Shown: positions 100 through 11,311, counted from the first letter of the stretch. The stretch is 11,311 bases of DNA from Fibrobacteria bacterium (GCA_043732185.1 JAYTHY010000076.1:1-11311), one strand, 5' to 3'. Made by a program: numbers and translations. The notes: generated by a model from the sequence alone, not told the origin.

Positions 100-2106
100 T
101 TACCGGGTAAGATTGAGAATCCTTGTGCACCGTTTACCCTCAGCATTTAATTCAAATAAATAGGGGCCGGGTAAAAGTTTGTCCAAGGAGTAAAAACCTT
201 CCTGGCCCGAAATCATCACCTTGCCTGTGACACTTGTCCGGCCCGAAAGTGTGTAGATCTTTGCGGAAACACTCCTGCCCTGCGAAGCATAAGGGAGCGA
301 GAAGAAAAGACCATCGCGAACTATGCGAAGAGAGAAATCAAAGGGTCCGGGAACACTATTGGTGCTGATGGTCACGACGTTTTGAGGAGAAGTGAGTATC
401 GCTCCACCTTCTCCCACCGTCATAAACTGGCCGCTTCTGAACATAATGAAATTGAGATTGTAACCTGTGCCTGAAGAATTCCCTACCCATGTGACACCAT
501 CGAGGGAAGACTGAATTACGCCAGCATCTCCCACGAGAGCACCGCTGCGGCTGTTTCCCGCAGCAACCAACTGGTTACCACTCCAGGCTATGGAGTTCAA
601 GGTGTTGATTTTCGAAGATCGGCTGGTCCAGGTGATGCCGTCGGGCGAAGTCAATATCACGTCTCCCACGGCCACAAGCTGGCTTCCGGTCCAGATGACA
701 GAATAAAGCGAATAAACTGTACCCGATATTTGGCTGGTCCAGTTCACACCGTCCGGCGAAGTGGCAGTGTACCCGTAATTGCCGACCGCCACGAACTGAC
801 TGCCGGTCCAAGCCACGGAATTACCCACTGCCGAAGACCTGCCCGTCCATGTGATTCCATCCGGAGAAGTTAGGCCCCCGGCATTTCCCACGGCCATAAA
901 TTGATTGCCGGTCCAAATTACGGAGAAAAGGGCAGTTGTTGGCGTCGTCGTCCGGTTGGTCCATGTGATGCCATCGGCTGAAGTAAGAACGGTGTTGTTC
1001 GCCCCCACCATTACAATTAGGGAGCCGTTAGACGTGACCGAGTAAAGAGGATTGGTGGTGCCCGAAGTTCGAGTGGTCCAGACAATACCGTCGGGGGAGG
1101 TCATTGTTCTGCCCGAATCGCCCACGGCCACAAACACGCTGCCAGTTCGTGTTACTCCGTGAAGCTGGGTTGTAAATCCAGAACTGCGCAAAGTCCAAGC
1201 GACTCCGTCTGGCGAAGTTGCAATAACGCAATAGCTGGAAACGGAAAAATCCGACCCCGCGCCCACGGCCACAAGCTGGCTACCGGTCCACGCTAGGCCG
1301 CTGAGTCGCATCGTGGTACCCGATGCCCTGGCAGTCCACGTCATCCCGTCCGGAGAAGTCAAAACTGTTCCCTGGGACCCCGTCGCGACCAGTTGACTTC
1401 CGGTCCAACGCACAGAGTAAAAAGTGGAAGAAGCTGCTCCCGAATTTTGGGCGGTCCAAGTGATGCCGTCTGGAGAGGTTAAGATAGTCCCGAGGGACCC
1501 CACCATCACATATTGACTACCGGTAAAGGTCGAGGAATAAAGCGGGTAGGTGGTTCCCGAAGTCCTCGGGCTCCAGGTAATGCCGTCCATTGAAGTTAAA
1601 ATGATACCTGCACTTCCTGCGGCTATAATTTGATTATTGGAAAAACTCACTGAGTAAAGGGCGGAGGTGATACCTGAGTTTTGGCTGGTCCAAACAATCC
1701 CGTCCGGAGAGGTCAGTATGCGGCCGGAATCGCCGACGGTCACGAATCGGGTGCCGGTCCAGATGACGGAATAGAGGATGCTTGTCAGGCCCGAAGCTCT
1801 GCTTGTCCAGGTTATTCCGTCTGGTGAAGTAAGAAGGGTACCGTTTCTCCCTACCGCCGCAAATTGGCTACCGGTCCAGACCACCGAGATAAGCCTGGAG
1901 GCGGTTCCCGAAGTTCTTTTCCTCCAGAGAATACCGTCGGGTGAAGTCAATACAGTGCCGGCATCGCCCACGGCCATGAGTTGACTGCCGTCCCAAATGA
2001 CGGAAGAAAGCCGGTTGCCATGTGGCATAGGATTGCGCCAAGTCCAATCGGTTTGAGCGAAGGGGTTTACGAAGGCAGCGAAAAATACAATAAAAAGAAG
2101 TGGCAT
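100..2106 (-). CDS. Secreted Asp-box/BNR-repeat beta-propeller protein (probably two 7-bladed propellers) with T9SS type-A-like C-terminal sorting domain
   Basis: Fourteen ~39-aa repeats of consensus LYSVxWTGSQFVAVGxxGTILTSPDGITWTxRxSG. N-terminal signal peptide MPLLFIVFFAAFVNPFA-Q. C-terminal tail AKIYTLSGR...LLPGPYLFELNAEGKRCTRILNLTR resembles Por/T9SS CTDs. ATG at 2106 is preceded by GGAAGGAAC and is preferred over the GTG at 2118. Confidence 0.9.
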   Translation of the reverse strand: MPLLFIVFFAAFVNPFAQTDWTWRNPMPHGNRLSSVIWDGSQLMAVGDAGTVLTSPDGILWRKRTSGTASRLISVVWTGSQFAAVGRNGTLLTSPDGITWTSRASGLTSILYSVIWTGTRFVTVGDSGRILTSPDGIVWTSQNSGITSALYSVSFSNNQIIAAGSAGIILTSMDGITWSPRTSGTTYPLYSSTFTGSQYVMVGSLGTILTSPDGITWTAQNSGAASSTFYSVRWTGSQLVATGSQGTVLTSPDGMTWTARASGTTMRLSGLAWTGSQLVAVGAGSDFSVSSYCVIATSPDGVAWTLRSSGFTTQLHGVTRTGSVFVAVGDSGRTMTSPDGIVWTTRTSGTTNPLYSVTSNGSLIVMVGANNTVLTSADGITWTNRTTTPTTALFSVIWTGNQFMAVGNAGGLTSPDGITWTGRSSAVGNSVAWTGSQFVAVGNYGYTATSPDGVNWTSQISGTVYSLYSVIWTGSQLVAVGDVILTSPDGITWTSRSSKINTLNSIAWSGNQLVAAGNSRSGALVGDAGVIQSSLDGVTWVGNSSGTGYNLNFIMFRSGQFMTVGEGGAILTSPQNVVTISTNSVPGPFDFSLRIVRDGLFFSLPYASQGRSVSAKIYTLSGRTSVTGKVMISGQEGFYSLDKLLPGPYLFELNAEGKRCTRILNLTR

Positions 2107-2121
2107 GTTCCTTCCCACTTT

Positions 2122-2649
2122 CTACTTCGAACTACGTTTCGAAACCGGAGTGATACATTTCTGGTAGGTTTTCCAATCCCTTCCTCTCGGGTAGACCCCA
2201 ACAACTTCGTCTAAGTAGAGGGTTGTTTCTGAATCAGGAAAACATATTTGATTGCCGATAAGCGAAATGGCCTTCCAAGGCGCGTACTTAATTCCTTGAG
2301 GCAATTTGGTAAAATGGTTTGTATTGATGTCAAGAACGTTAATAATTCTAAAACCACGGATAGAAGATGGAAAAACAAAATTAGAGTCATTAAGGCCCAA
2401 ACCATCAAGATCAAGATTACCAGAGAGATAGCTTGCATCTTTCTGGTCACGTACCGCAAAAGCATGGCCGGCATTTTTGGCAGAATCAAGCACGGGGTTT
2501 GCGTTTATAATTGCGTCGACGATCCTTAAATCAGATTCAACATTTTTTTGATACGAATCGTCAAAGAAACTAAACCCGCAGCCGCAGAGCAGCATTGAGG
2601 CGAAAACCACAGCGTTTTTAAGGACTTGCGCCTTCACAATCGAATCCAT
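2122..2649 (-). CDS. Leucine-rich-repeat lipoprotein
   Basis: Hydrophobic stretch and lipobox-like MLLCG|C. About three LRR-like units (LDLDGLGLND..FPSSI; LDINTNHFTKLPQGI; ISLIGNQIC) followed by a C...W..YQKC cap. ATG at 2649 has GGAGG upstream. Overlaps the end of the upstream gene by 32 nt. Confidence 0.75.
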   Translation of the reverse strand: MDSIVKAQVLKNAVVFASMLLCGCGFSFFDDSYQKNVESDLRIVDAIINANPVLDSAKNAGHAFAVRDQKDASYLSGNLDLDGLGLNDSNFVFPSSIRGFRIINVLDINTNHFTKLPQGIKYAPWKAISLIGNQICFPDSETTLYLDEVVGVYPRGRDWKTYQKCITPVSKRSSK

Positions 2650-5131
2650 TCGCCCTCCGATAATATTCCCGGCCAAGGACATTCAAATCGAAACAGAAGG
2701 AAGCCCAACCATTGAAGTCAATTTTGGCTTGCGCTTTGAACGCATCAAAGGTCGGGTCCTCAATAAACCTCGTATAAGCCGGCTGGATACCCAATGGGGC
2801 GAATTTCGGGTCCACCAGTAGTGGCTTGTACCATAGCAACAGCACGTTGAAATTCGTATTGGTGCCTAGGTTTTGAGGCGGACTCCCGGCGCCGTCGAGA
2901 ATGTCTATCATGCGGGTCAATGGGATGACGTCTCCGCCGATGGGATCCATCCGTAGTTCCCAATTGATATTTCCTGCCTCGGTGATGGCGACGGGTGCGA
3001 AACGGCCACGATTGGCGTATAAATCGGTGGAAAGCCAAGCTGAAGTGTTTGAAATGCGAGTTATAATATCGTTACGTGTGTACCGCCCTTCGACATCGAA
3101 AGGATAATAGTGGACGGAAATGGCGTCGGGCAGGAGGGGTGTAAATACTCCGTTGCCATTTATGTCCACAGTCCTGTCTAAGTTGCTCAATACCAAGGAA
3201 AAATATTGCCGCGTTGTGTAATTCAGTAGGGTTCCTTGGACCAAATTTTTGGCGTCATCAAGGGAAGAAGTCACGGCATTACTCGTATATAGGGCCAACC
3301 ATGGAGCAAGGACGATAATGGGAGGGAAAAATATGGATCCAAGATATGCCCCGATAAGAAATGTTGCAGCACCAACTCCTACGCCTGCATCTAATATCTT
3401 CTCATCTAAAAGTTCTCCAAAATGGGCTACGGCATCCTGCTTGATGAAGTCTCTGTCGAACAGTGCCCCTATGACGATCTCGGCGTTCGGATCAGCCCTT
3501 TTGATGACCTTGTAATATTCCCTGAACAAGACTGCGTAGTCCTGCGGAGAAATATAGGGGAACATGTTGGGCTCATTCCCAATTTCCCAAACGGTCCGAC
3601 GGGGACGCATGGCCATATTGTCCCGGAGTACGGCAGCTTGGATTTGCTTGGCGTCAGCTGCCGCTAGAGCGGCCGCCTTAGGCTGGAACCAGCGGAACCT
3701 CGGTCTATCGGCGACGCACAAGGAGGGAATACGGCTTTGGCAGATGCGTACTTGCCACCTACGGATGCAAGGAAAGGACACGGAAGTCCAGCAACCTTCG
3801 AATGGAAACAAATACCATCCTATCCTAGCCTTGATAAAACTATCGAGGTCGGACTTAAAGTTTCCTACGCTGTATCCAAAACCATCATGACGGTGATCGA
3901 ATGTGCCCACTTTTCGAACCACAGACACACCGGACACAGGATCGGCAGAAGCTGCTAAAGACGTAACGGTATAAGGCGGATTGGGTGGGGGCGGATCAGT
4001 GTGGTTACCATATATTTCATACCACTTCAGCTGCATTATCTGAACGAATTGGGTGGCACCCTCTCCAATTACGCCATACTCCAATGTGCCGCCTAGTGGA
4101 GGGATTTGAGAAATCAATGAGGACTGTGAAATTGATTTTTTATTCGTAAGAAATGGTCTCGGCAAAGTGCTCCAAGTAGGAGAAATCTGATCGGCGGTTA
4201 TTGTTTTCAGTAAGGAATCAAAATATGCCGCCGAATCCTTGATCACCGGCAGAACCGGAGGCTGTGCCACGACCGCCGTGACAGGAGCCGCAGGCATGTA
4301 CACCCCGCTTCCTCGACCGACGATTACCTTTTTCCCGAACAACCGACCATCTAATTCCACACTATCGCCCAAGATTATGTCGGCTTTTGGGGCCACGAAA
4401 ATTGCGCTAACCCCGGCAAAGGACCCGATGCAAAGTTGGTGATTCTGTTTGCTGTAAATGGTGAGCATCATGTTGCTGTCCCCAGCAATGGGCGTGATTT
4501 CGGCTTCGCGGCCAATGCTGACGTTTTTCTCCACATTTATCTGAATGGGGCCATCCGAAAGGTCTAAAGCTACCGAAGCCAAGCCATCCAACCAAAAGCC
4601 CTGGAAGTTATAAGTTCCGGACCGGAGGGTAAGTATAGACCGAGGTAGAACCCGGAGATACCTGTAAGTGCCAGGTCCTAGGATTTTCGGATGCTTATGG
4701 ACGAACACATCGTGTGTGCCCACGGGGATATCCAAAACCTGTGGTATCGGGCATTCTTCCCAACCAGGCATGTGCTCGATGACATCCGAAGCCACTTTTG
4801 AACCGTGCCCCCGGAATACTTGACCACCCACGGTGACAAGTCCATTCACGAGTGAATTTTTATGGAGCCAAGCATTGGAATCTGCTGTTACGGTGCCCCA
4901 CACCTGCGCCCTTTCTTCGACGACCACATGTTTCGCCGAACCTACGTTGCCACCAACAGCTACAGAGCTTTTCCTAAGTATTGTGGCTTCACGAGAGTAG
5001 ATGATGTATTGGTCGGAGCAATAGGGAAAATTCTGGGGCAATTCACCCTTGGCTTGAAGCCACAATCCAAAAACTATGGCAAGGAAATTCAGGGCAGAGC
5101 GGGAAGAAACCAAGAACATCACCAACCCCAT
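2618..5131 (-). CDS. Secreted multidomain protein: N-terminal beta-solenoid-like region plus C-terminal clan GH-A (GH39/GH5-like) glycoside hydrolase-like domain
   Basis: 837-aa ORF with signal peptide (..ALNFLAIVFGLWLQAKG). N-terminal V/G-rich beta-strand repeats ending in FVAPKADIILG...LDGRLFGKKVIV. Pro-rich linker. Clan GH-A motifs WEIGNEPN (3566-3589), IKRADPNAEIVIGAL, PDAISVHYYP and VAITEAG (ITEAG at 2972-2986). Confidence 0.8.
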   Translation of the reverse strand: MGLVMFLVSSRSALNFLAIVFGLWLQAKGELPQNFPYCSDQYIIYSREATILRKSSVAVGGNVGSAKHVVVEERAQVWGTVTADSNAWLHKNSLVNGLVTVGGQVFRGHGSKVASDVIEHMPGWEECPIPQVLDIPVGTHDVFVHKHPKILGPGTYRYLRVLPRSILTLRSGTYNFQGFWLDGLASVALDLSDGPIQINVEKNVSIGREAEITPIAGDSNMMLTIYSKQNHQLCIGSFAGVSAIFVAPKADIILGDSVELDGRLFGKKVIVGRGSGVYMPAAPVTAVVAQPPVLPVIKDSAAYFDSLLKTITADQISPTWSTLPRPFLTNKKSISQSSLISQIPPLGGTLEYGVIGEGATQFVQIMQLKWYEIYGNHTDPPPPNPPYTVTSLAASADPVSGVSVVRKVGTFDHRHDGFGYSVGNFKSDLDSFIKARIGWYLFPFEGCWTSVSFPCIRRWQVRICQSRIPSLCVADRPRFRWFQPKAAALAAADAKQIQAAVLRDNMAMRPRRTVWEIGNEPNMFPYISPQDYAVLFREYYKVIKRADPNAEIVIGALFDRDFIKQDAVAHFGELLDEKILDAGVGVGAATFLIGAYLGSIFFPPIIVLAPWLALYTSNAVTSSLDDAKNLVQGTLLNYTTRQYFSLVLSNLDRTVDINGNGVFTPLLPDAISVHYYPFDVEGRYTRNDIITRISNTSAWLSTDLYANRGRFAPVAITEAGNINWELRMDPIGGDVIPLTRMIDILDGAGSPPQNLGTNTNFNVLLLWYKPLLVDPKFAPLGIQPAYTRFIEDPTFDAFKAQAKIDFNGWASFCFDLNVLGREYYRRANGFDCEGASP

Positions 5132-5290
5132 TGTTAACTATCACATAATATAGGTGGAATTTCGAGATTCAGCTGCAACAATGGGACACTAAATTTTCGC
5201 AATTTCAAGCCACGATGTCCTATTATCCCTTATTACGCGCATATTTTACGCGTTCTTCCCTGTGCGCCACTTGACTCTAGAACCGGTGTG

Positions 5291-5425
5291 CGGAACAACT
5301 CGGCAAGAATTGCGAAACAGCCGACTTAAGGGATACGAATCGGCTCAAGTTCAGCTTCCACCATTCAACGGCCACCGATACCATCCTGGTCATCACCGAT
5401 AACCGCATTGGGCTTTCGTTGCGGC
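5291..5425 (-). repeat. Possible degenerate shorter attC-like element D
   Basis: Minus strand GCCGCAAC ... GTTGTTCCG. Arms pair only weakly (AATTGCG/CGCATT). Internal AGCCGA/TCGGCT hairpin. Lacks the motif shared by A, B and C. Confidence 0.3.
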
Positions 5426-5625: not shown

Positions 5626-5880
5626 GAACACAACGTGTGCCAGGGCGACGTGGATTTTTGGATTAGGGCCGAAACACGAGGACGAGAGCGAAGTGGTGGC
5701 CTGTGGCCGCCCGAAGCGAACGCCCGCAGTGTGCTGTGAAGGCCCGTTGAGAGCGAGTGGCGTTTCGCCGCGAAGCCTCTCAATGGAGCCTGAACAGCCG
5801 GACCAATCCAAAAATCCATGTGGGCGAAGCCCCGGAGCGGGGGTGGAACCCACGCGGAGCGCCCTAGCTGTGTTGTCCGA
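5626..5880 (-). repeat. Long attC-like hairpin element C (255 nt)
   Basis: Minus strand starts TCGGACAAC and ends GTTGTGTTC. Outer arms AGGGCG/CGCCCT and perfect 14-bp arms TGGATTTTTGGATT (5651-5664)/AATCCAAAAATCCA (5805-5818). Shares the internal GAGGAY..GCGRAGTGG..CCCGRAGCG..CCCGCA motif with A and B. Confidence 0.75.
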
Positions 5881-6238
5881 TGTTGCGCCTCTTAATTTCT
5901 TTATGGGGTGGGTCTTCTCTTGGTATTGGTTGGTTGGATTTTTTCTGGGGTAGGGGCCCCAGTCCTAACTTCATAACTTCTTTCATTCTTTCCGGCATGG
6001 CGAAGTGCTTTCATTTTGCCATGCACCGATTGTGCGTGTATTGTCTGGCTTTTTCCTTGTTTTACCTGACTTCCCCATTTTGGATTTATTGGTTTTCTGA
6101 ATTTTTATTTGACTTAAATTCTTAGTTTGGATTGCTTTGGTTTTCTTCTCTTCCCACCCCATAAAAAATTATGAACTGGTAAATTGCCTTCCGGCCCATA
6201 GCCGGGGGGCAAGTATTTAGAGGTGCAATTTCGGACAA
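5634..6238 (-). mobile_element. Putative ORF-less integron-like cassette 2 (605 bp including element C)
   Basis: Begins after G^TTGTCCGA (6239/6238). Its terminal hairpin starts with the exact complement TCGGACAAC (5880-5872). No credible CDS inside. Confidence 0.6.
5946..6024. repeat. Structured ~80-nt motif, copy 1
   Basis: TGGGGTAGGGGCCCCA ... CTTTCATT ... GCATGGCGAAGTG-cttt-CATTTTGCCATGC; 13-bp stem with two G:T pairs on the + strand. Confidence 0.8.
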
Positions 6239-6523
6239 CGTTAGCCACGCCGGAAGTGGCCTGGGAAGGCCGAAGGGAAGAAGCAACGAAATAATTTGCG
6301 CGCTGGGCGAGGATGTGAGCGGAGTGGGGAGTGCCGACCCCGGAGCGAACACCCGCAGCCCGCAATGAAGAAAAGCTGCGGCGCTAACGAAGCCGAACGG
6401 GAAAGACCTCAGAGAAAGTTAGCGCCGCGGCTTATTCTGAATTGCCGCGCAGCCTTCCCAGGCCATTTGCGAAACCGCAATGCGGAGCATGCCCGCGGTT
6501 TCCCGGCTGGCGGTGTTGCATGC
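6231..6523 (-). repeat. Long attC-like hairpin element B (293 nt)
   Basis: Minus strand starts GCATGCAAC and ends GTTGTCCGA. Perfect 14-bp arms 6257-6270/6452-6465, extended by AAG/TTT. Inner 16-bp stem 6373-6388/6418-6433. G:T pairs form on the + strand. Confidence 0.8.
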
Positions 6524-6645
6524 GCCGCAGGCCGGCCAGCGTGTATCGCGCAGGCCGAGTTGTCCCACACACAGGGAGATGATATCGGCTCTTTCTTTCC
6601 GCCCACCCTCTTTTCTTAGCGCACTGGTTTTTCTTTATCACCTTA

Positions 6646-6727
6646 TGGGGAAGGGGCCCCATTCTTCACGTAATTGGAGTAATTACTTTCATTAGGCAAG
6701 GCGAAGTGCCTCAGCATTTTGCCATGC
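6646..6727. repeat. Structured ~80-nt motif, copy 2
   Basis: TGGGGAAGGGGCCCCA ... CTTTCATT ... GCAAGGCGAAGTG-cctcag-CATTTTGCCATGC; same three blocks, order and orientation as copy 1. Confidence 0.8.
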
Positions 6728-6743
6728 GACGTTTGCACTTGCC

Positions 6744-7343
6744 TTATTTTTCCCATGGTCTCTTGCCTTGGCAGTGAAAGTAGTAGAATCCTTGAGACGT
6801 TTCTTTGGCCTCAGGACATAAGTCGAAGGAGATTTTCCTTCGTTTTTTTGGATTTTCCGGAAAGAATATAAGTTCCTTTTCCCATGCATCGTATTTGGCC
6901 AAGTAACTAGTCTTCCATGCCTTTAATTCGCTCTTTTGTAATTCCCGCCTGGGACGCGCGTATTCTTCTTTAGAAAATAGAGCAATTACCAGCGTAGCCC
7001 TCGGAAATTTGTTCATCATACATTCCCATGAAATATTGCGTAACATGGTCTTAAGGCTATCCTCGTTTTCTATTATCAAGGAGTCGTACGCCGAGACAAA
7101 AAGCGTGGCCTTCAACTGTTTTTTATCCTCGTCAAGGCTGATTCCGCTGTAAGGTGGTGGTGGAGATGAATATTTCCTGCGAGCACCCAATCTTTCTGCG
7201 GAGTGAATTTGGCTAATACAGAACGCCAAGCTCACTAGAAGGCAGCTACCCCAGGCGAGTTTCGACGCTGGCCGGAAGGCGTGCGCGAATAGCACGCGGA
7301 ACGCGACGCTTATTTTCTTCCTTTTTTGGAGCCCTTCGAACAC
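6744..7343 (-). CDS. Hypothetical protein, probably exported; start codon uncertain
   Basis: 199-aa ORF with hydrophobic segment LAWGSCLLVSLAFCISQIHSA. As called, it overlaps the end of the 888-aa gene by 34 nt on the same strand. No family recognised. Confidence 0.6.
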   Translation of the reverse strand: MFEGLQKRKKISVAFRVLFAHAFRPASKLAWGSCLLVSLAFCISQIHSAERLGARRKYSSPPPPYSGISLDEDKKQLKATLFVSAYDSLIIENEDSLKTMLRNISWECMMNKFPRATLVIALFSKEEYARPRRELQKSELKAWKTSYLAKYDAWEKELIFFPENPKKRRKISFDLCPEAKETSQGFYYFHCQGKRPWEK

Positions 7344-9976
7344 GGTTCTTTCCCTTCCACGAGGACGGAAACGGCTTCCGACTGAAGATTGTCCACCCGG
7401 ATGCGATAATAGTATACAGCACCAACGTCTACGTTTTCATCCACAAATTTCCTTTCCGGGGTTCTCCCGATTTCCACAAATCCCTGCGTGGAATCCAGGG
7501 TTGACCGCATAACCCGATAATCTCCAGAACCCGTATGACGCCATTTGAGGTGAACTTCAGGTTCTTTGTCCTTAGATTTTTTCTCCTTGGCCTCCAAATG
7601 CATGACCACGGTTTGGATAAGGCTGATGGTGATTTGCAGTGGTTTAGGGGTTTCCACGTTTCCGGCAACGTCAGTTCCGAAAAACTCAATCTGGTAAACC
7701 CCAGCGGCTGATAGCGTGAGAGGACTGGAGGCCGCAACGCCATTGACCAAAAGGGAAAAGGCAGCGACACCCGAAAGCGCATCGACGCTCTGGAAATTGA
7801 TGGTCACGGAGCCATTTTCCGTGCCTGTGCCCGTGTAATCGTGAGAGGAAACAGGCGGAGTGAAATCATTGTGGATGAGGAGGGTATGGACCGGTTCCAC
7901 ATTGCCCGCCTTGTCCGTTGACCAAAATTCCACGGTGTGTTCGCCTTCTTCAGTCAGCGTGATCGCAGTGGTATCCTTGGCGTCACCACCATCCACTTTT
8001 ACGAATGTCTGGGCAACCCCAGAACCGGTGTCGGTAGCGGAAAAGTGGATGACCAACGGATTGATTCGATTCCAGGGTGCTTCCACGAAATCCGAGACCG
8101 TAACAGGTGGGATAACATCGTTCTCGTTGTTTTTATAGTTGACCGCTACCGGGTCGATTTGGCCTTCCACGGTATTCCCATGGATCAACTGGGTAGTTTC
8201 GGTTCCAAAGGCGTCGATCTTGATGATTTCCAGAGTATAGGGGCCGGATCCCGTTCCCACAATTTGGATTTGGAATTCTCCCTGCACCGGCTGGTTGATG
8301 TGGATGTATTTCACGGGGTCAGGATCCGGAGGTACGGGAAAGTCTGGAAGAGTGGTGAAAGAGGCTTCGCCCAAGGTGGCCGTTACATCGGGTATTTCAT
8401 CATAGGATATGCCATCGGCGGGATTCAGTCCCCTCCTTCTTCCCAGTGGGTCCACGATAAAGGCCTGTGCCGGAGAAAAAATCTGGAGGACAAGGCCGTT
8501 GGTTTTAGACTTGTCAGTTGGCGCCATGAACATGGCGTAAGAGAATTTGTTGTCCCAATCGATTTGTTTATTGATATCACCAATTTCACCATTCACCATA
8601 GCAAAATTATTTGCATATCCGACGTCGTTGATAAAGTAGGTTTTGACCCATTTGTTCTCGCGCTTCTTGAAATAGGTTTCGATTCCATTGGCCACCACAA
8701 AGTGGGTATGGTCAAACACCTTCAAAAGCACCGGGATTTTCCGAGCGAGATAATCTTCAATCAGGCTGGCATCGATCTGTGAAGCCTTGAATTCCAACTT
8801 GGTATTGCCGGAAAGACCATTGGTTCCTTTCAGCAGTTCAGGAAGATTGTAGGAAGGGAAGCAGACTTGGGTTCCGGGATCATCGGAACAGGTCCTGAAC
8901 AGATTCTTCTTTTTCACGTACCGGGCCAAAGTCAGGGGCGTGAGGTTTACCAATGCCGTTGAATTTTCCGCCTCTACTTTTGTGGCGCCCTGGGCATGCA
9001 TGATTGATGCCCAAGAAGTCATCCAACAGCCTTTTTGGATAAAGGCATAGCCCGCGACATCGTCCGGATTGATAACGTCATCAAACCAAGGAGCAAAGGT
9101 AGGGCCGGCGGCCTGGCTATACCATGGCCCATTTAAATCAAAGGGTTTTTCCGGGGTGTACGAACCAAAATTGAAATCGGTGGTGATGGCAATCCCGTGC
9201 AGGCGAATGCCGCCATTGACCGTGGCAGTGGTTCCCCCAGCCAAGGGCACAATCGTCTTGAGTCGTGGTACGCTGACCCGGACCTTGTTTACGCGCAGCT
9301 TCAATTCATCGGCGGTGAACCGGATAAATTGCAGATCCATAAACGGCTGCGTGCCGCCACGCAGGGAAAAGGCGCTGACCGGAGGATCGATCAAAGCCCG
9401 CACCGGCACGCTCCCCAACGTGCTGAACCGGAACGAGCGAACATAGTCGAGGATCGAAATCTTGCGGGTCACCTGAACCGGAGCGCCGGAACCAAGGGGA
9501 TCAGAAAGGGTAACATCAATGATAATGGAATCCTTGCCCGACGCGAACTTGGTGGAGTCGTAAAGGTTAAACGCTTCCATAAGAAAAACGATATCGGTCA
9601 TGTGCACGGCAGGGAAGCTCGATGGGAATTGAAACTCAGCGAATGCCAGCGTATCATCCGAGTTGGTCCGCAGGTTGAGGGCGTTCGAGGTGTGGGACTT
9701 CACACGAACAACTTGGATTGAAAGGCTATCTCCCCCGGACCCGCCTTGATGAAGGGTGTCTCCTTCCAGAATCAAAGCCGCGTTGAATTCACTTGGGTAC
9801 TGCGATGAAAAGTCCACGAATGCGGAGCCCCGGGAAGCAGATAATTGCGTGGCGAAGTCGTAGCTTGCGTTTAGGTCCTCATGAAAATTCGGATTGTGCG
9901 GTGTTTCCGGCACTTGGCCAATGGCCAAAGCAAGGGGTAAAAGAAGGCCAAAGCAGAAGACGGGCGGGAATTTCAT
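7310..9976 (-). CDS. Secreted C39-like (papain-fold) cysteine peptidase domain protein with two OmpL47-type Ig-like repeats and a C-terminal fibronectin type III domain
   Basis: Signal peptide MKFPPVFCFGLLLPLALA; GGAG upstream of ATG. Triad-like motifs IQKGCWMTS (9014-9040), HFVVANG (8684-8704) and INDVG (8618-8632). Two DxxPPV...SxTD..SGV...GxHTVEFWSTDxAGNVE-type repeats. FnIII-like VHLKW...YRVMRS...FVDENV..GAVYYYRI. Confidence 0.85.
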   Translation of the reverse strand: MKFPPVFCFGLLLPLALAIGQVPETPHNPNFHEDLNASYDFATQLSASRGSAFVDFSSQYPSEFNAALILEGDTLHQGGSGGDSLSIQVVRVKSHTSNALNLRTNSDDTLAFAEFQFPSSFPAVHMTDIVFLMEAFNLYDSTKFASGKDSIIIDVTLSDPLGSGAPVQVTRKISILDYVRSFRFSTLGSVPVRALIDPPVSAFSLRGGTQPFMDLQFIRFTADELKLRVNKVRVSVPRLKTIVPLAGGTTATVNGGIRLHGIAITTDFNFGSYTPEKPFDLNGPWYSQAAGPTFAPWFDDVINPDDVAGYAFIQKGCWMTSWASIMHAQGATKVEAENSTALVNLTPLTLARYVKKKNLFRTCSDDPGTQVCFPSYNLPELLKGTNGLSGNTKLEFKASQIDASLIEDYLARKIPVLLKVFDHTHFVVANGIETYFKKRENKWVKTYFINDVGYANNFAMVNGEIGDINKQIDWDNKFSYAMFMAPTDKSKTNGLVLQIFSPAQAFIVDPLGRRRGLNPADGISYDEIPDVTATLGEASFTTLPDFPVPPDPDPVKYIHINQPVQGEFQIQIVGTGSGPYTLEIIKIDAFGTETTQLIHGNTVEGQIDPVAVNYKNNENDVIPPVTVSDFVEAPWNRINPLVIHFSATDTGSGVAQTFVKVDGGDAKDTTAITLTEEGEHTVEFWSTDKAGNVEPVHTLLIHNDFTPPVSSHDYTGTGTENGSVTINFQSVDALSGVAAFSLLVNGVAASSPLTLSAAGVYQIEFFGTDVAGNVETPKPLQITISLIQTVVMHLEAKEKKSKDKEPEVHLKWRHTGSGDYRVMRSTLDSTQGFVEIGRTPERKFVDENVDVGAVYYYRIRVDNLQSEAVSVLVEGKEPCSKGSKKGRK

Positions 9977-9991
9977 TTTTCTACTCCGGAT

Positions 9992-10789
9992 TTATGGGTT
10001 TCCAAGGATCTTCAAGGGGGTTTTCTTTGAAATGTATCCACGAATGGGATATTTGCGGCCCCCCTGGGAGGCGAACTGCCCTTTGACTTCACCCCCTCGT
10101 GACGGCGTCAGGATCGCCTCCCATGCCCCTGCGCGGAGCAGAGTGGACGGCAAAATCACTACCAATTCGGAACCCTCGACTGATATATAGTCTGAGCAGC
10201 CTTGCACGGCGGGATGCTTACCCCTCTTGGCTGAAAAAGAGCAAATATCCTTCCCTTGGGATCTTATCCTCCCCTTGAAGGATTGGTCGGAGTCCAACGT
10301 AATCCCCACCTCCAGAGGCTTTCGGAGGGAAATGCCCCACCAGAAATCCGCTCGATACTCGTTTTGTTTCAACGGAGAGGGATAAGGAGGTTCCTTGCCG
10401 ACCTGCACGATGCTGTCGCCATTGAGATCCACAGCAAAAAGCAAGGGATTGTTCTCACGGGTGGAAACGTAAATTTCGTGATCGGGTACGAAGTACTCAA
10501 GCGAATCTTTGACCTCGAATGACGACCTGAGAGTTCGTAAATCCGGGGCATAGGCAGCGTGCTCGTTGAAGTAGAGATCTTCCAGCGTCAGAATGGCGCT
10601 GAATGTCTCATTCAGTTTTGGAGGAAGATATATTTTGGTCGATTCGGAAAAGGCAAGATTCAAAGCCAGAAAAATAAGTAAGGCACTTTTTTGAATTGAG
10701 TCGCGCAATTTGTTTGCTCTTGTTGCGAGTTGAGGCCTAAATTTACGAAGAAATCTGCAAAAAAGCATTGTAAAAATGGTCCTTTCCAC
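9992..10789 (-). CDS. Hypothetical exported protein; start codon uncertain
   Basis: 265-aa ORF with signal-like ALLIFLALNLAFS-E. Stop lies 15 nt before the start of the peptidase gene, consistent with an operon. Confidence 0.65.
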   Translation of the reverse strand: MERTIFTMLFCRFLRKFRPQLATRANKLRDSIQKSALLIFLALNLAFSESTKIYLPPKLNETFSAILTLEDLYFNEHAAYAPDLRTLRSSFEVKDSLEYFVPDHEIYVSTRENNPLLFAVDLNGDSIVQVGKEPPYPSPLKQNEYRADFWWGISLRKPLEVGITLDSDQSFKGRIRSQGKDICSFSAKRGKHPAVQGCSDYISVEGSELVVILPSTLLRAGAWEAILTPSRGGEVKGQFASQGGRKYPIRGYISKKTPLKILGNP

Positions 10790-10932
10790 GCTGAAGGACC
10801 ATAAGAAAATAATTGGCTTGAACCCGAATTCCTCAAAAATTCATCAAGTCGACCTCGGCGTCTTACAAGCTACCGCGACGGGCAGAAAAGCAAACCCCGA
10901 GCCCGTCAGTAAGTTGCCGAGGCAATGGGACC

Positions 10933-10958
10933 GAACGTATTTCGAGAACGTATTTCGA
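10933..10958. repeat. Perfect 13-bp tandem duplication, possible operator
   Basis: GAACGTATTTCGA x2, about 145 nt upstream of the first gene of block 1. Confidence 0.6.
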
Positions 10959-11036
10959 TATTGGTTTTTCCTGATGGAAATTTGAAAAACCTGTTATTGA
11001 AATCCTATCCCTTCACGGCGTAAGCCGCCTTTGCAA

Positions 11037-11070
11037 GGCGCCGCAACTGCGGCGCCAATTTTTCTCTTTT
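11037..11070 (+). terminator. Intrinsic terminator-like hairpin, antisense to the genes
   Basis: GGCGCCGCA-ac-TGCGGCGCC perfect inverted repeat followed by AATTTTTCTCTTTT on the + strand. Confidence 0.4.
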
Positions 11071-11184
11071 CCGTTCTTGATTTTCTTCTCTTTCCAGTGC
11101 GCCTCTTCTTCTTCTTCCATTTTCTTTTCTTCTCTTGGGGGGCAGTTTTTGTAATTCTCTTTCTTCTCTTGTGTGGGGGCAATT

Positions 11185-11311
11185 GCATGCAACGTTGGCC
11201 CAGCCAGAAGTGGCCTGGGAAGGCATGCGCGATTAGTGAGGATGCGCGCGGAGTGGGGAGTACCGACCCCGGAGCGCGCACCCGCAACTAGCAATGAAAA
11301 CAAGCTGAGGT
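11185..11311 (-). repeat. Long attC-like hairpin element A (3' part only; continues beyond the window)
   Basis: Colinear homolog of 6236-6378. Shared + strand blocks CAACGTTRGCC, GAAGTGGCCTGGGAAGGC, GCGGAGTGGGGAGTRCCGACCCCGGAGCG, CACCCGCA and GCAATGAA..AAGCTG. Ends on the minus strand in GTTGCATGC. Confidence 0.8.

What the first reader, a model, noticed from the sequence alone, without database searches (positions are those of the whole stretch)
6515..11193. The ends of the 5-kb cassette are also complementary over ~100 nt
Seen, nested and about 4.5 kb apart: 6515-6523/11185-11193 (9 bp), TTGTCCCACACA 6560-6571/TGTGTGGGGGCAA 11170-11182 (12 bp, one G:T, one bulge), GCCCACC 6601-6607/GGGGGGC 11137-11143 (6 of 7) and GCGCACTGG 6619-6627/CCAGTGCGC 11094-11102 (9 bp perfect). 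Pyrimidine-rich linkers that cannot pair with each other separate these blocks. Cassette 2 has the same design with different sequence. Inference: the functional site may extend into both cassette ends, helping a large unit bring its ends together. I do not know this as a feature of classical cassettes.
Basis: partly seen in the sequence, partly recalled or inferred. Interest (0 to 1): 0.75.

Follow-up and report, generated by a model that had tools for sequence, protein, structure and literature searches.

The report
Integron cassette ends form split stem
In this uncultured Fibrobacteria genome the recombination hairpins of integron gene cassettes are unusually large, and their stem continues for tens of base pairs past the cut site, so each inserted cassette carries the two halves of that extra stem at its opposite ends.

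Summary
All four blocks sit at the stated coordinates. The window is part of a chromosomal integron array: an integron integrase lies on another contig. The 249-295-nt hairpins have a classical attC base. Cassettes read on the - strand and are cut at AA|C just left of each hairpin.

Literature already reports 9-11 nt of pairing across the cut (PMC2727003), which covers block 1. Here the pairing goes further. The layout is a 9-bp helix, a TT:TG loop, an 8-14-bp helix, a local hairpin and a 12-14-bp G-run:C-run helix.

Over 31 units from 7 genomes, cognate ends pair at -29.2 kcal/mol against -15.7 for non-cognate ends (0 of 20,000 permutations). The signal survives trimming 25 nt. It is absent in two control arrays from other phyla. 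Twenty end types co-vary, and G:T mismatches favour the + strand 54:15.

The focal 5-kb cassette is a weak, common-type member: z = -3.1, and other cassettes' arms pair with it better than its own. Arm strength does not track cassette length.

Best reading: an extended attC stem split by integration. It is a new variant of a known kind, and its function is untested.

The parts
5628..5878 (+). attC hairpin hp1 (251 nt, bottom strand shown on +). It runs from the R' box ...ACACAAC (AAC at 5632-5634) to the R'' box GTTGTCC (5872-5878). It is the 3' recombination site of the small cassette 6238->5634.
   Evidence: Profile hit and boundaries. Branched fold, z -3.8.
5872..6239 (-). Content of the ORF-less cassette 2 (368 nt). 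Its arms are P1 5872-5880 / 6231-6239, P2 5883-5896 / 6215-6228, and P3 within 5897-5912 / 6153-6168. A local hairpin lies in the right-hand arm (about 6192-6212).
   Evidence: I2, I16; z -7.8. A contig of run X5 holds 5632-6240 between other neighbours.
6233..6521 (+). attC hairpin hp2 (289 nt). R' box GGACAAC at 6233-6239, R'' box GTTGCAT at 6515-6521. L boxes about 6245-6253 and 6501-6511. It is the 3' recombination site of the focal cassette.
   Evidence: (z -5.3 and -4.7). 100% identical in G002:C145.
6239..11192 (-). The focal cassette as a mobile unit (4954 nt). It reads on the - strand from 11192 down to 6239: 5' arm, three ORFs, 3' arm, then attC hp2. Cuts are inferred at 11192|11193 and 6238|6239 (AA|C on the + strand).
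   Evidence: G002:C145 carries the same content and hp2 but a different hairpin after ...GCATGCAACGTTG. The orientation fits the integrase contig.
6515..6523 (+). P1, R''-side arm (GTTGCATGC). It pairs with 11185-11193. This is the classical R box plus 2 bp.
   Evidence: Positions 1-9 are paired in 26-30 of 30 units.
6524..6559 (+). Type-A insertion between P1 and P2 on the R'' side (35-45 nt in relatives). It has no partner in the other arm.
   Evidence: same insertion in C35, C10, G002:C44, G007:C337.
6560..6571 (+). P2 arm TTGTCCCACACA. It pairs with 11170-11182.
   Evidence: Compensatory variants occur in G009:C85 (TTACCCCGCACA / TGTGCGGGGGGTAA; TTATTTCCACGC / GCGTGGAAATAA).
6599..6607 (+). 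P3 arm CCGCCCACC (C-run). It pairs with the G-run at 11137-11145. It is degenerate here compared with CCGCCCCCC / GGGGGGCGG in relatives.
6619..6627 (+). Block 4, GCGCACTGG. It pairs with 11094-11102. Seen only in this cassette.
   Evidence: Not seen in the other type-A right flanks printed (two C35 copies; C10).
6744..7343 (-). Cassette ORF, 199 aa, no Pfam family.
7310..9976 (-). Cassette ORF, 888 aa, weak Big_13 (bacterial Ig-like) match.
9992..10789 (-). Cassette ORF, 265 aa, no Pfam family.
11094..11193 (+). R'-side (cassette 5') arm: block 4 at 11094-11102, P3 at 11137-11145, P2 at 11170-11182, TT loop at 11183-11184, P1 at 11185-11193.
   Evidence: The same arm sequence occurs in C35, C10 and G002:C44.
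11187..11311 (+). attC hairpin hp3, cut off by the contig end.

Best explanation
The window is part of a chromosomal integron cassette array of an uncultured Fibrobacteria bacterium.

Each cassette ends in a giant attC site of 249-295 nt with a classical base: R box, unpaired spacer, L box. The folded stem does not stop at the R box. It continues outward as three elements: a 9-bp helix holding the cut site, a small TT:TG internal loop, and a second helix of 8-14 bp. A side hairpin and a third helix of 12-14 bp (G-run against C-run) follow.

The integrase cuts inside this long stem, at AA|C of the bottom strand. Inserting a cassette therefore separates the outer stem into two halves. One half sits at the cassette's 5' end. 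The other sits just before its attC.

The halves are neighbours again only in the excised circle. There they would clamp the R box shut and favour the folded, recombination-ready form of the bottom strand. In the array, an attC next to a cassette of another type has only about 4 bp of R box.

Shown: the anatomy, the covariation, the strand bias, and the mobile-unit boundaries. Inferred: that the outer helices form in vivo, and that they raise folding or re-insertion of the excised cassette.
For: An integron integrase scores above the curated cut-off (375.5 bits against 265) at C132. In the close relatives L056 and L057 the same hairpin family lies 2-5 kb upstream of intI.

The attC base is classical: RYYYAAC, a spacer of about 5 nt and an L box on both sides.

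The hairpin's + strand is purine-rich (56%) and the more stable strand in 25 of 36 sites. Bottom strands are described this way in PMC5371416 (passage read).

Cognate end pairs average -29.2 kcal/mol against -15.7 for non-cognate pairs (31 units, 7 genomes). The cognate partner ranks first in 20 of 31, and 0 of 20,000 permutations reach the observed mean.

With one unit per end type (n = 20), the cognate advantage holds after trimming 14 nt (-20.3 against -14.0) and 25 nt (-16.8 against -12.1), with 0 of 5000 permutations in each case. Two control arrays show none: L107 (n = 9) and L131 (n = 5).

Twenty different 9-mer end types were seen, with compensatory changes in P2 and P3.

Transition mismatches read as G:T on the + strand 54 times and on the - strand 15 times (30 units; binomial p 2.6e-6, units not independent).

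Cut site and orientation: G002:C145 has the same cassette and hp2 but another hairpin beyond AACGTTG. A contig of run X5 holds hp1 plus cassette 2 (5632-6240) between different neighbours.

Simulated excised junctions fold on average 11.1 kcal/mol better than the in-array context. Arm-to-arm pairs rise from 21.5 to 34.5 (24 hairpins).
Against: Everything is computed. No structure probing or recombination assay exists for these sites.

The focal cassette is a weak case. Its z is -3.1, or -2.2 without the first 10 nt. The simulated excised junction gains nothing over the in-array context (-112.6 against -112.3 kcal/mol). Arms of other type-A cassettes pair with its arm better than its own (-28.8, -26.8 and -25.9 against -21.9).

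Two of 31 units lack cognate pairing: G009:C85 63180-58503 ranks 19, and G013:C18 14072 ranks 21. A second, shorter attC family exists that my profile does not find. It may explain such cases, but I did not show that.

In L056, the arms of one hairpin pair with each other in place rather than across the cassette.

The units are related, so the permutation figures overstate independence. The control arrays are only two, and a crude scanner of my own found them. In the first 40 nt, control cassettes reach a median of 13-14 matched nt against 17 here. The difference therefore lies mainly in the outer helices.

The genomes are metagenome bins, and their contigs break at these repeats.
Confidence: 0.72

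Rival explanations
1. The arms act inside the array. In single-stranded DNA the two ends of a cassette anneal, loop the cassette out, and bring the two flanking attC hairpins side by side. This would raise excision. It is the first reader's idea.
For: The arms are complementary in cis, and the folding strand is the recombining (bottom) strand. In E. coli tests, excision falls with cassette length when the bottom strand is on the lagging-strand template (PMC5371416, passage read). A device that joins the ends could therefore be useful.
Against: Arm strength does not rise with unit length (rho 0.01, n = 30). Units of 312-392 nt have arms too. Both ends of a 5-12-kb unit would have to be single-stranded at once. 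In the looped form, P1 uses the R' box of one attC and the R'' box of the other, so neither attC keeps its own R box. By inference, that should hinder integrase binding rather than help it.
Confidence: 0.12
2. The outer helices are accessory binding sites for the extra N-terminal domain of this lineage's integrase, much as arm-type sites serve lambda Int. The pairing exists to build a protein-binding duplex, not merely to add stability.
For: The IntI here has about 175 extra N-terminal residues. These are conserved in 6 Fibrobacterota-type loci, while the listed matches from other phyla begin at query residue 118 or later, mostly 177-190. The first 94 residues model as a four-helix bundle (pLDDT 88). 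Its best solved matches are core-binding domains of Cre, an archaeal Xer (TMq 0.71) and VchIntIA (2a3v, TMq 0.67). P2 lies about one helical turn from the R box, and the TT:TG loop is conserved.
Against: The Foldseek E-values are weak (0.2-1.4), and Pfam finds nothing in the extension. L062 has the extension but candidate attC sites of only 64-105 nt, and its cassette ends pair over about 9 bp. No binding was tested. P2 and P3 vary freely in sequence, which fits a structural role better than sequence-specific binding.
Confidence: 0.1
3. The complementary ends act in RNA or double-stranded DNA, or are chance plus the classical 7-bp core. Candidate roles are promoter or terminator elements, pairing of mRNA 5' and 3' ends, or terminal inverted repeats of a transposon-like unit.
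For: The arms lie in untranslated cassette ends. The common type-A arms are conserved as sequence. A terminator-like hairpin lies nearby at 11031-11066.
Against: Chance is excluded at the family level. The mRNA is the - strand, on which the 54 G:T positions would be A:C mismatches. Inverted repeats recognised as duplex DNA would show no such strand bias, and they would not begin at the integrase cut site in every unit. Rfam gives no match at E <= 1.
Confidence: 0.06

Closest known systems
Canonical integron attC sites (59-base elements, including Vibrio cholerae repeats)
   Same: Imperfect hairpin of the bottom strand with R box, unpaired central spacer, L box and a variable terminal structure. 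Conserved AAC/GTT. Cut in the R' box. The outer part of R' comes from the neighbouring cassette. Sites stand in arrays next to intI.
   Different: Length is 249-295 nt (median 272, n = 36) against 57-141/142 nt in print (PMC5371416 and PMC2727003, passages read). The stem goes on past the R box as two more helices with a side hairpin. The cut therefore lies inside the stem rather than at its base.
Known short extension of R'/R'' pairing ('9-11 consecutive complementary nt', Bouvier et al. 2009, PMC2727003)
   Same: Helix P1 here is exactly this: 9 bp across the cut. My two control arrays show 9-14 bp.
   Different: Beyond P1 there is a conserved TT:TG loop, then P2 (8-14 bp) and P3 (12-14 bp), up to about 100 nt from the cut. 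The control arrays have no cognate signal beyond 14 nt.
DUF1874 motif (Weinberg et al. 2017, PMC5737381)
   Same: A multi-stem motif recurring in consecutive intergenic regions. The authors suggested it may be an unusual, more complex attC (passage read).
   Different: It has no sequence or structure match here: Rfam gave no hit at E <= 1. No integrase was seen beside it, and cassette-end pairing is not mentioned in the passage I read.
Arm-type sites and the N-terminal arm-binding domain of lambda integrase (recalled, not from a call)
   Same: A tyrosine recombinase with an extra N-terminal DNA-binding domain, plus extra sites outside the core site.
   Different: Here the extra domain looks like a second core-binding domain, not the lambda arm-binding fold. 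The extra DNA would be folded single strand. Binding is untested.

Membership tests
Integron attC site | An integron integrase (IntI) in the same genome and next to such sites | tested here: met
   TIGR02249 scores 375.5 bits (cut-off 265) at C132. That contig ends about 400 nt upstream of intI, so adjacency in this genome is not shown. In L056 and L057 (IntI 95% and 82% identical) the hairpin family lies upstream of intI.
Integron attC site | R'' and R' boxes (RYYYAAC ... GTTRRRY) with conserved AAC/GTT at both boundaries | tested here: met
   Positions 1-3 (GTT against AAC) are paired in 29-30 of 30 units. Boundaries are listed. The RRRY part is only loosely kept (for example GTTGCAT, GTTGTCC).
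Integron attC site | Folded hairpin with R box, unpaired central spacer and L box. Extrahelical bases mark the bottom strand. | tested here: inconclusive
   Folds are significant (z -3.8 to -5.3), and the L boxes co-vary by eye. I did not map extrahelical bases. The strand was inferred from G:T bias and purine skew.
Integron attC site | Length within the described range (57-141/142 nt) | tested here: not met
   249-295 nt, n = 36. Range taken from PMC5371416 and PMC2727003. Length is descriptive, not mechanistic, so I still file these as attC sites.
Integron attC site | The unit 'content plus one attC' moves as a block, with breakpoints at G|TT (AA|C) | tested here: met
   G002:C145 compared with the window. 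An X5 contig carries 5632-6240 between other neighbours.
Integron attC site | Recombined by IntI as single-stranded bottom strand | not testable with these tools
   Needs an in vivo or in vitro recombination assay.
Classical R-box extension (9-11 nt) | Contiguous pairing of cassette start with the bases before R'', no further helices | tested here: not met
   P1 fits. The cognate signal persists after trimming 14 and 25 nt, and discrete P2 and P3 helices are present.

The most novel reading that the evidence does not exclude
Fibrobacteria integrons use a three-part recombination site. Besides the R and L boxes, an outer duplex (P2/P3) exists only in the excised cassette. It is read by a second core-binding-like domain at the N-terminus of their integrase. 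The enzyme could then tell free cassettes from resident ones, favouring capture over loss. That would be an accessory-site logic not described for integrons.
Probability: 0.12. Interest if true: 0.8.

Novelty: new variant of a known kind. Interest (0 to 1): 0.6.

Why it matters
attC sites are the best-studied case of a recombination site read as folded single-stranded DNA. The model puts the cut at the base of the hairpin. Here the cut lies inside a much longer, multi-helix structure, so the site is complete only in the excised circle and is weakened in the array. That is a built-in asymmetry between resident and free cassettes, and it can be tested at the bench.

These sites are about twice the published maximum length. 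I recall a default cap of 200 nt in IntegronFinder but did not check it. Integrons of this phylum, and perhaps of others, may then be under-counted.

The finding also gives natural covariation data for designing longer synthetic attC sites.

Tried and rejected
Rfam scan of the whole window at E <= 1 gave no family.

It was re-run with shorter arms and a longer limit.

Laying Logan contigs of four runs gave several 'joints' (5636->11238, 6540->11187, 6604->11162 and others). Their sides are short (23-36 nt) and they lie in the repeated hairpins or arms. I treat them as cross-mapping between repeat copies, not as excision junctions. Only the loose ends of longer records were used.

Search for the missing partner of the unit G009:C85 63180-58503: the profile found no further giant attC there. 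BLAST with the shorter attC family found copies elsewhere but none in that gap. It remains unexplained.

The pooled comparison with control arrays was uninformative because G+C differs between loci. It was replaced by within-locus tests.

Pfam on the integrase N-terminal extension gave nothing even at E <= 10.

Literature searches for a longer extension of attC pairing, or for Fibrobacteria integrons, found no such description. These cover only the open-access library held here.

Full report
**What the window is.** The 11,311-base window is a whole contig (C76) of a 4.46-Mb, 139-contig genome. An integron integrase lies on contig C132: TIGR02249 scores 375.5 bits against a cut-off of 265. That contig stops about 400 nt upstream of the gene. 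The closest integrases in public genomes are from 'MAG: Fibrobacteria bacterium' records, at 95% and 82% identity. This agrees with earlier notes of this scan that call the genome Fibrobacteria.

The window holds three copies of a large hairpin: 5628-5878, 6233-6521, and 11187 to the contig end. All long ORFs are on the - strand. More copies lie on C35, C10, C100 and C113. The family was found in 21 of 41 related genomes searched, including 13 of 14 of the same genus. This tally includes the unpublished G011, which I did not otherwise use.

**The hairpins are attC sites, but giant ones.** Each is bounded by ...RYYYAAC on the left and GTTRRRY... on the right. About 5 unpaired bases follow, then a co-varying L-box helix, for example CCCAGCCAG / CTGGCTGGG. 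The rest is a branched structure. Folds are significant, with z from -3.8 to -5.3. Thirty-six complete sites measure 249-295 nt, median 272. Published attC sites span 57-141 or 57-142 nt (PMC5371416 and PMC2727003, passages read). Rfam has no match.

**Orientation and cut site.** G002:C145 carries the same 4.7-kb content and a 100% identical left hairpin. To the right, the two genomes are identical up to ...GCATGCAACGTTG and then carry different hairpins. In run X5, from another study, a 789-nt contig holds 5632-6240 (hairpin 1 plus cassette 2). It has a different arm on its left and a different hairpin on its right.

So the mobile unit is 'hairpin plus the content to its right'. It is cut at AA|C on the + strand, and cassettes read on the - strand, as the ORFs do. 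This fits the integrase contig, where the array must lie upstream of intI. The + strand is then the bottom strand. It is purine-rich in the hairpins (56%) and the more stable strand in 25 of 36 sites. Bottom strands are described this way in PMC5371416.

**The observation.** Block 1 (9 bp) is the R box plus two pairs. Bouvier et al. state that in most cassettes the pairing extends beyond the 7-nt boxes 'to a total of 9-11 consecutive complementary nt' (PMC2727003). My two control arrays show 9-14 bp. Block 1 is therefore classical. The question is what lies beyond it.

**Beyond the R box.** With a profile built from the hairpins, I defined 31 units with both ends known, in 7 genomes.

| Test | Cognate (kcal/mol) | Non-cognate (kcal/mol) | Permutations as low |
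|---|---|---|---|
| All 31 units, first/last 100 nt | -29.2 | -15.7 (sd 5.5) | 0 of 20,000 |
| All 31 units, first 10 nt removed | -22.9 | -13.9 | 0 of 20,000 |
| One unit per end type (n = 20), 14 nt removed | -20.3 | -14.0 | 0 of 5000 |
| One unit per end type (n = 20), 25 nt removed | -16.8 | -12.1 | 0 of 5000 |

In the first test the cognate partner ranks first in 20 of 31 units. Two arrays from other phyla show no cognate advantage beyond 14 nt: L107 (Gammaproteobacteria, 9 units) and L131 (Anaerolineae, 5 units). I found these with a crude scanner of my own.

**Anatomy.** The arms share one layout:
- P1: 9 bp from the cut.
- A 2x2 loop that is usually TT against TG.
- P2: 8-14 bp.
- A local hairpin of about 30 nt in one arm.
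- P3: 12-14 bp, a G-run against a C-run.

In P3 the right-hand arm starts about 25-30 nt from GTT and the left-hand arm lies about 64-76 nt before AAC. The letters differ between cassettes while the pairs are kept. Examples are TGTTTGTGGGGGGT / ACCCCCCACAAACA, TTTGGAGGGGCT / AGCCCCTCCAAA and GTTTTGGGGTGAA / TTCACCCCAAAAC.

Type A, to which the focal cassette belongs, differs in one respect. It has a 35-45-nt insertion between P1 and P2 on the R'' side. Cassette 2 of the window shows the full layout: 9 + 14 + 12 bp.

**Which strand folds.** In the aligned arms, transition mismatches are G:T on the + strand 54 times and on the - strand 15 times (30 units; binomial p 2.6e-6; units not independent). 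The folding strand is thus the bottom DNA strand. It is not the mRNA strand.

**The focal cassette is a weak member.**
- Its arms give z -3.1 against shuffles, or -2.2 without the first 10 nt.
- Its own partner ranks 9th of 31. Arms of other type-A cassettes pair with it better: -28.8, -26.8 and -25.9 against -21.9 kcal/mol.
- Its P2 and P3 are degenerate versions of the type-A consensus.
- Block 4 is private to this cassette.

**Mechanism.** A stem that continues past the cut must be split by insertion, one half at each end of the cassette. The halves are adjacent only in the excised circle. I simulated this for 24 hairpins. The excised junction folds on average 11.1 kcal/mol better than the in-array context, and arm-to-arm pairs rise from 21.5 to 34.5. 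The focal cassette gains nothing (-112.6 against -112.3).

In the array, hairpin 2 has an R box of only about 4 bp (GGACAAC against GTTGCAT). I therefore read the arms as a clamp that completes and stabilises the attC of the free cassette. This is inference.

It is not favoured: strength does not track length (rho 0.01), and the looped form would take the R boxes away from both attC sites.

**Things that do not fit.**
- Two of 31 units lack cognate pairing.
- One hairpin in L056 has arms that pair in place rather than across the cassette.
- A second attC family of about 140 nt exists that my profile misses.
- In the first 40 nt, control cassettes are not far behind: median 13-14 matched nt against 17 here.

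**A lead.** The integrase has about 175 extra N-terminal residues. They are conserved in six Fibrobacterota-type loci. The first 94 residues model as a four-helix bundle (pLDDT 88). Its nearest solved folds are core-binding domains of Cre, an archaeal Xer and VchIntIA, at weak E-values of 0.2-1.4. Pfam sees nothing there.

Another Fibrobacteria genome with this extension (L060) has about 12 hairpin repeats at roughly 500-nt spacing. The repeat copies measure about 300 nt, and the one hairpin I read spans about 240 nt. Its cassette ends pair over 9 bp plus two short blocks. Whether the extra domain reads the outer helices is open.

**Literature.** Five searches and passages of four papers gave three relevant points: the 9-11-nt statement, the 57-141/142-nt length range, and the DUF1874 suggestion of a complex attC. 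None describes longer split stems or integrons of Fibrobacteria. Only open-access text was searchable.

**Verdict.** This is a new variant of a known kind: an extended, multi-helix attC whose outer stem is split between the cassette ends.

Noticed in passing
L001:367-1836 (G000:C132), N-terminal part 403-684: The integron integrase has about 175 extra N-terminal residues. Residues 13-106 model as a four-helix bundle resembling a second core-binding domain (pLDDT 88). The extension is conserved in six Fibrobacterota-type IntI loci and is not matched in the listed hits from other phyla.
   Followed up: partly
window 5943-6032 and 6643-6735; also G000:C10 5946-6164 and C113 368-405: A conserved motif of about 90 nt (GGGGCCCC ... 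GGCGAAGTGC ... TTTTGCCATGC) lies about 70-130 nt to the right of hairpins. On the - strand that is between the last ORF and the attC. It contains a GCATGGC/GCCATGC inverted repeat. Its role is unknown.
   Followed up: no
L056:86-225; G000:C35 5558-5611; G009:C85 about 53818-53905: A second, shorter attC-like family of about 140 nt (...GGTTAAC | GCTTGG ... CAATT GTTAGAC...) is interspersed in the same arrays. My profile for the giant family does not find it.
   Followed up: partly
window 11031-11066: A G+C-rich hairpin (GGCGCCGCA-ACT-GCGGCGCC) is followed by a T-run on the + strand. It looks like an intrinsic terminator pointing antisense to the cassette ORFs, just before the 5' arm.
   Followed up: no
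window 5283-5304: An inverted copy of the type-A P2 region (CCGGTGTGCGGAACAACTCGGC) is 86% complementary to 6554-6575. It lies inside the 5' untranslated part of the left cassette. It may be a remnant of a site.
   Followed up: no
L060:1-6900 (complete-chromosome Fibrobacteria MAG): Upstream of intI there are about 12 near-identical repeats of about 300 nt, spaced 491-520 nt apart, each starting ...AAC|GCCGCGC. This is another giant attC family, with very short and partly duplicated cassettes.
   Followed up: partly
G000:C132 about 100-125 compared with L056 about 2310-2335: At the presumed attI junction the two genomes share ...TTAATAATATTG (read on the - strand). L056 then continues with TTAGACGG, while G000 continues with GCTCTTCG, which does not begin with TT. 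This may be a small deletion at the first cassette boundary.
   Followed up: no
window 100-5131 and 6744-10789: The cassette genes are large proteins of unknown function (672, 186, 837, 199, 888 and 265 aa). They have only weak Pfam matches (DUF6242, DUF7305, Big_13). The focal cassette carries three ORFs with no room for an attC between them, which is unusual for integron cassettes.
   Followed up: partly
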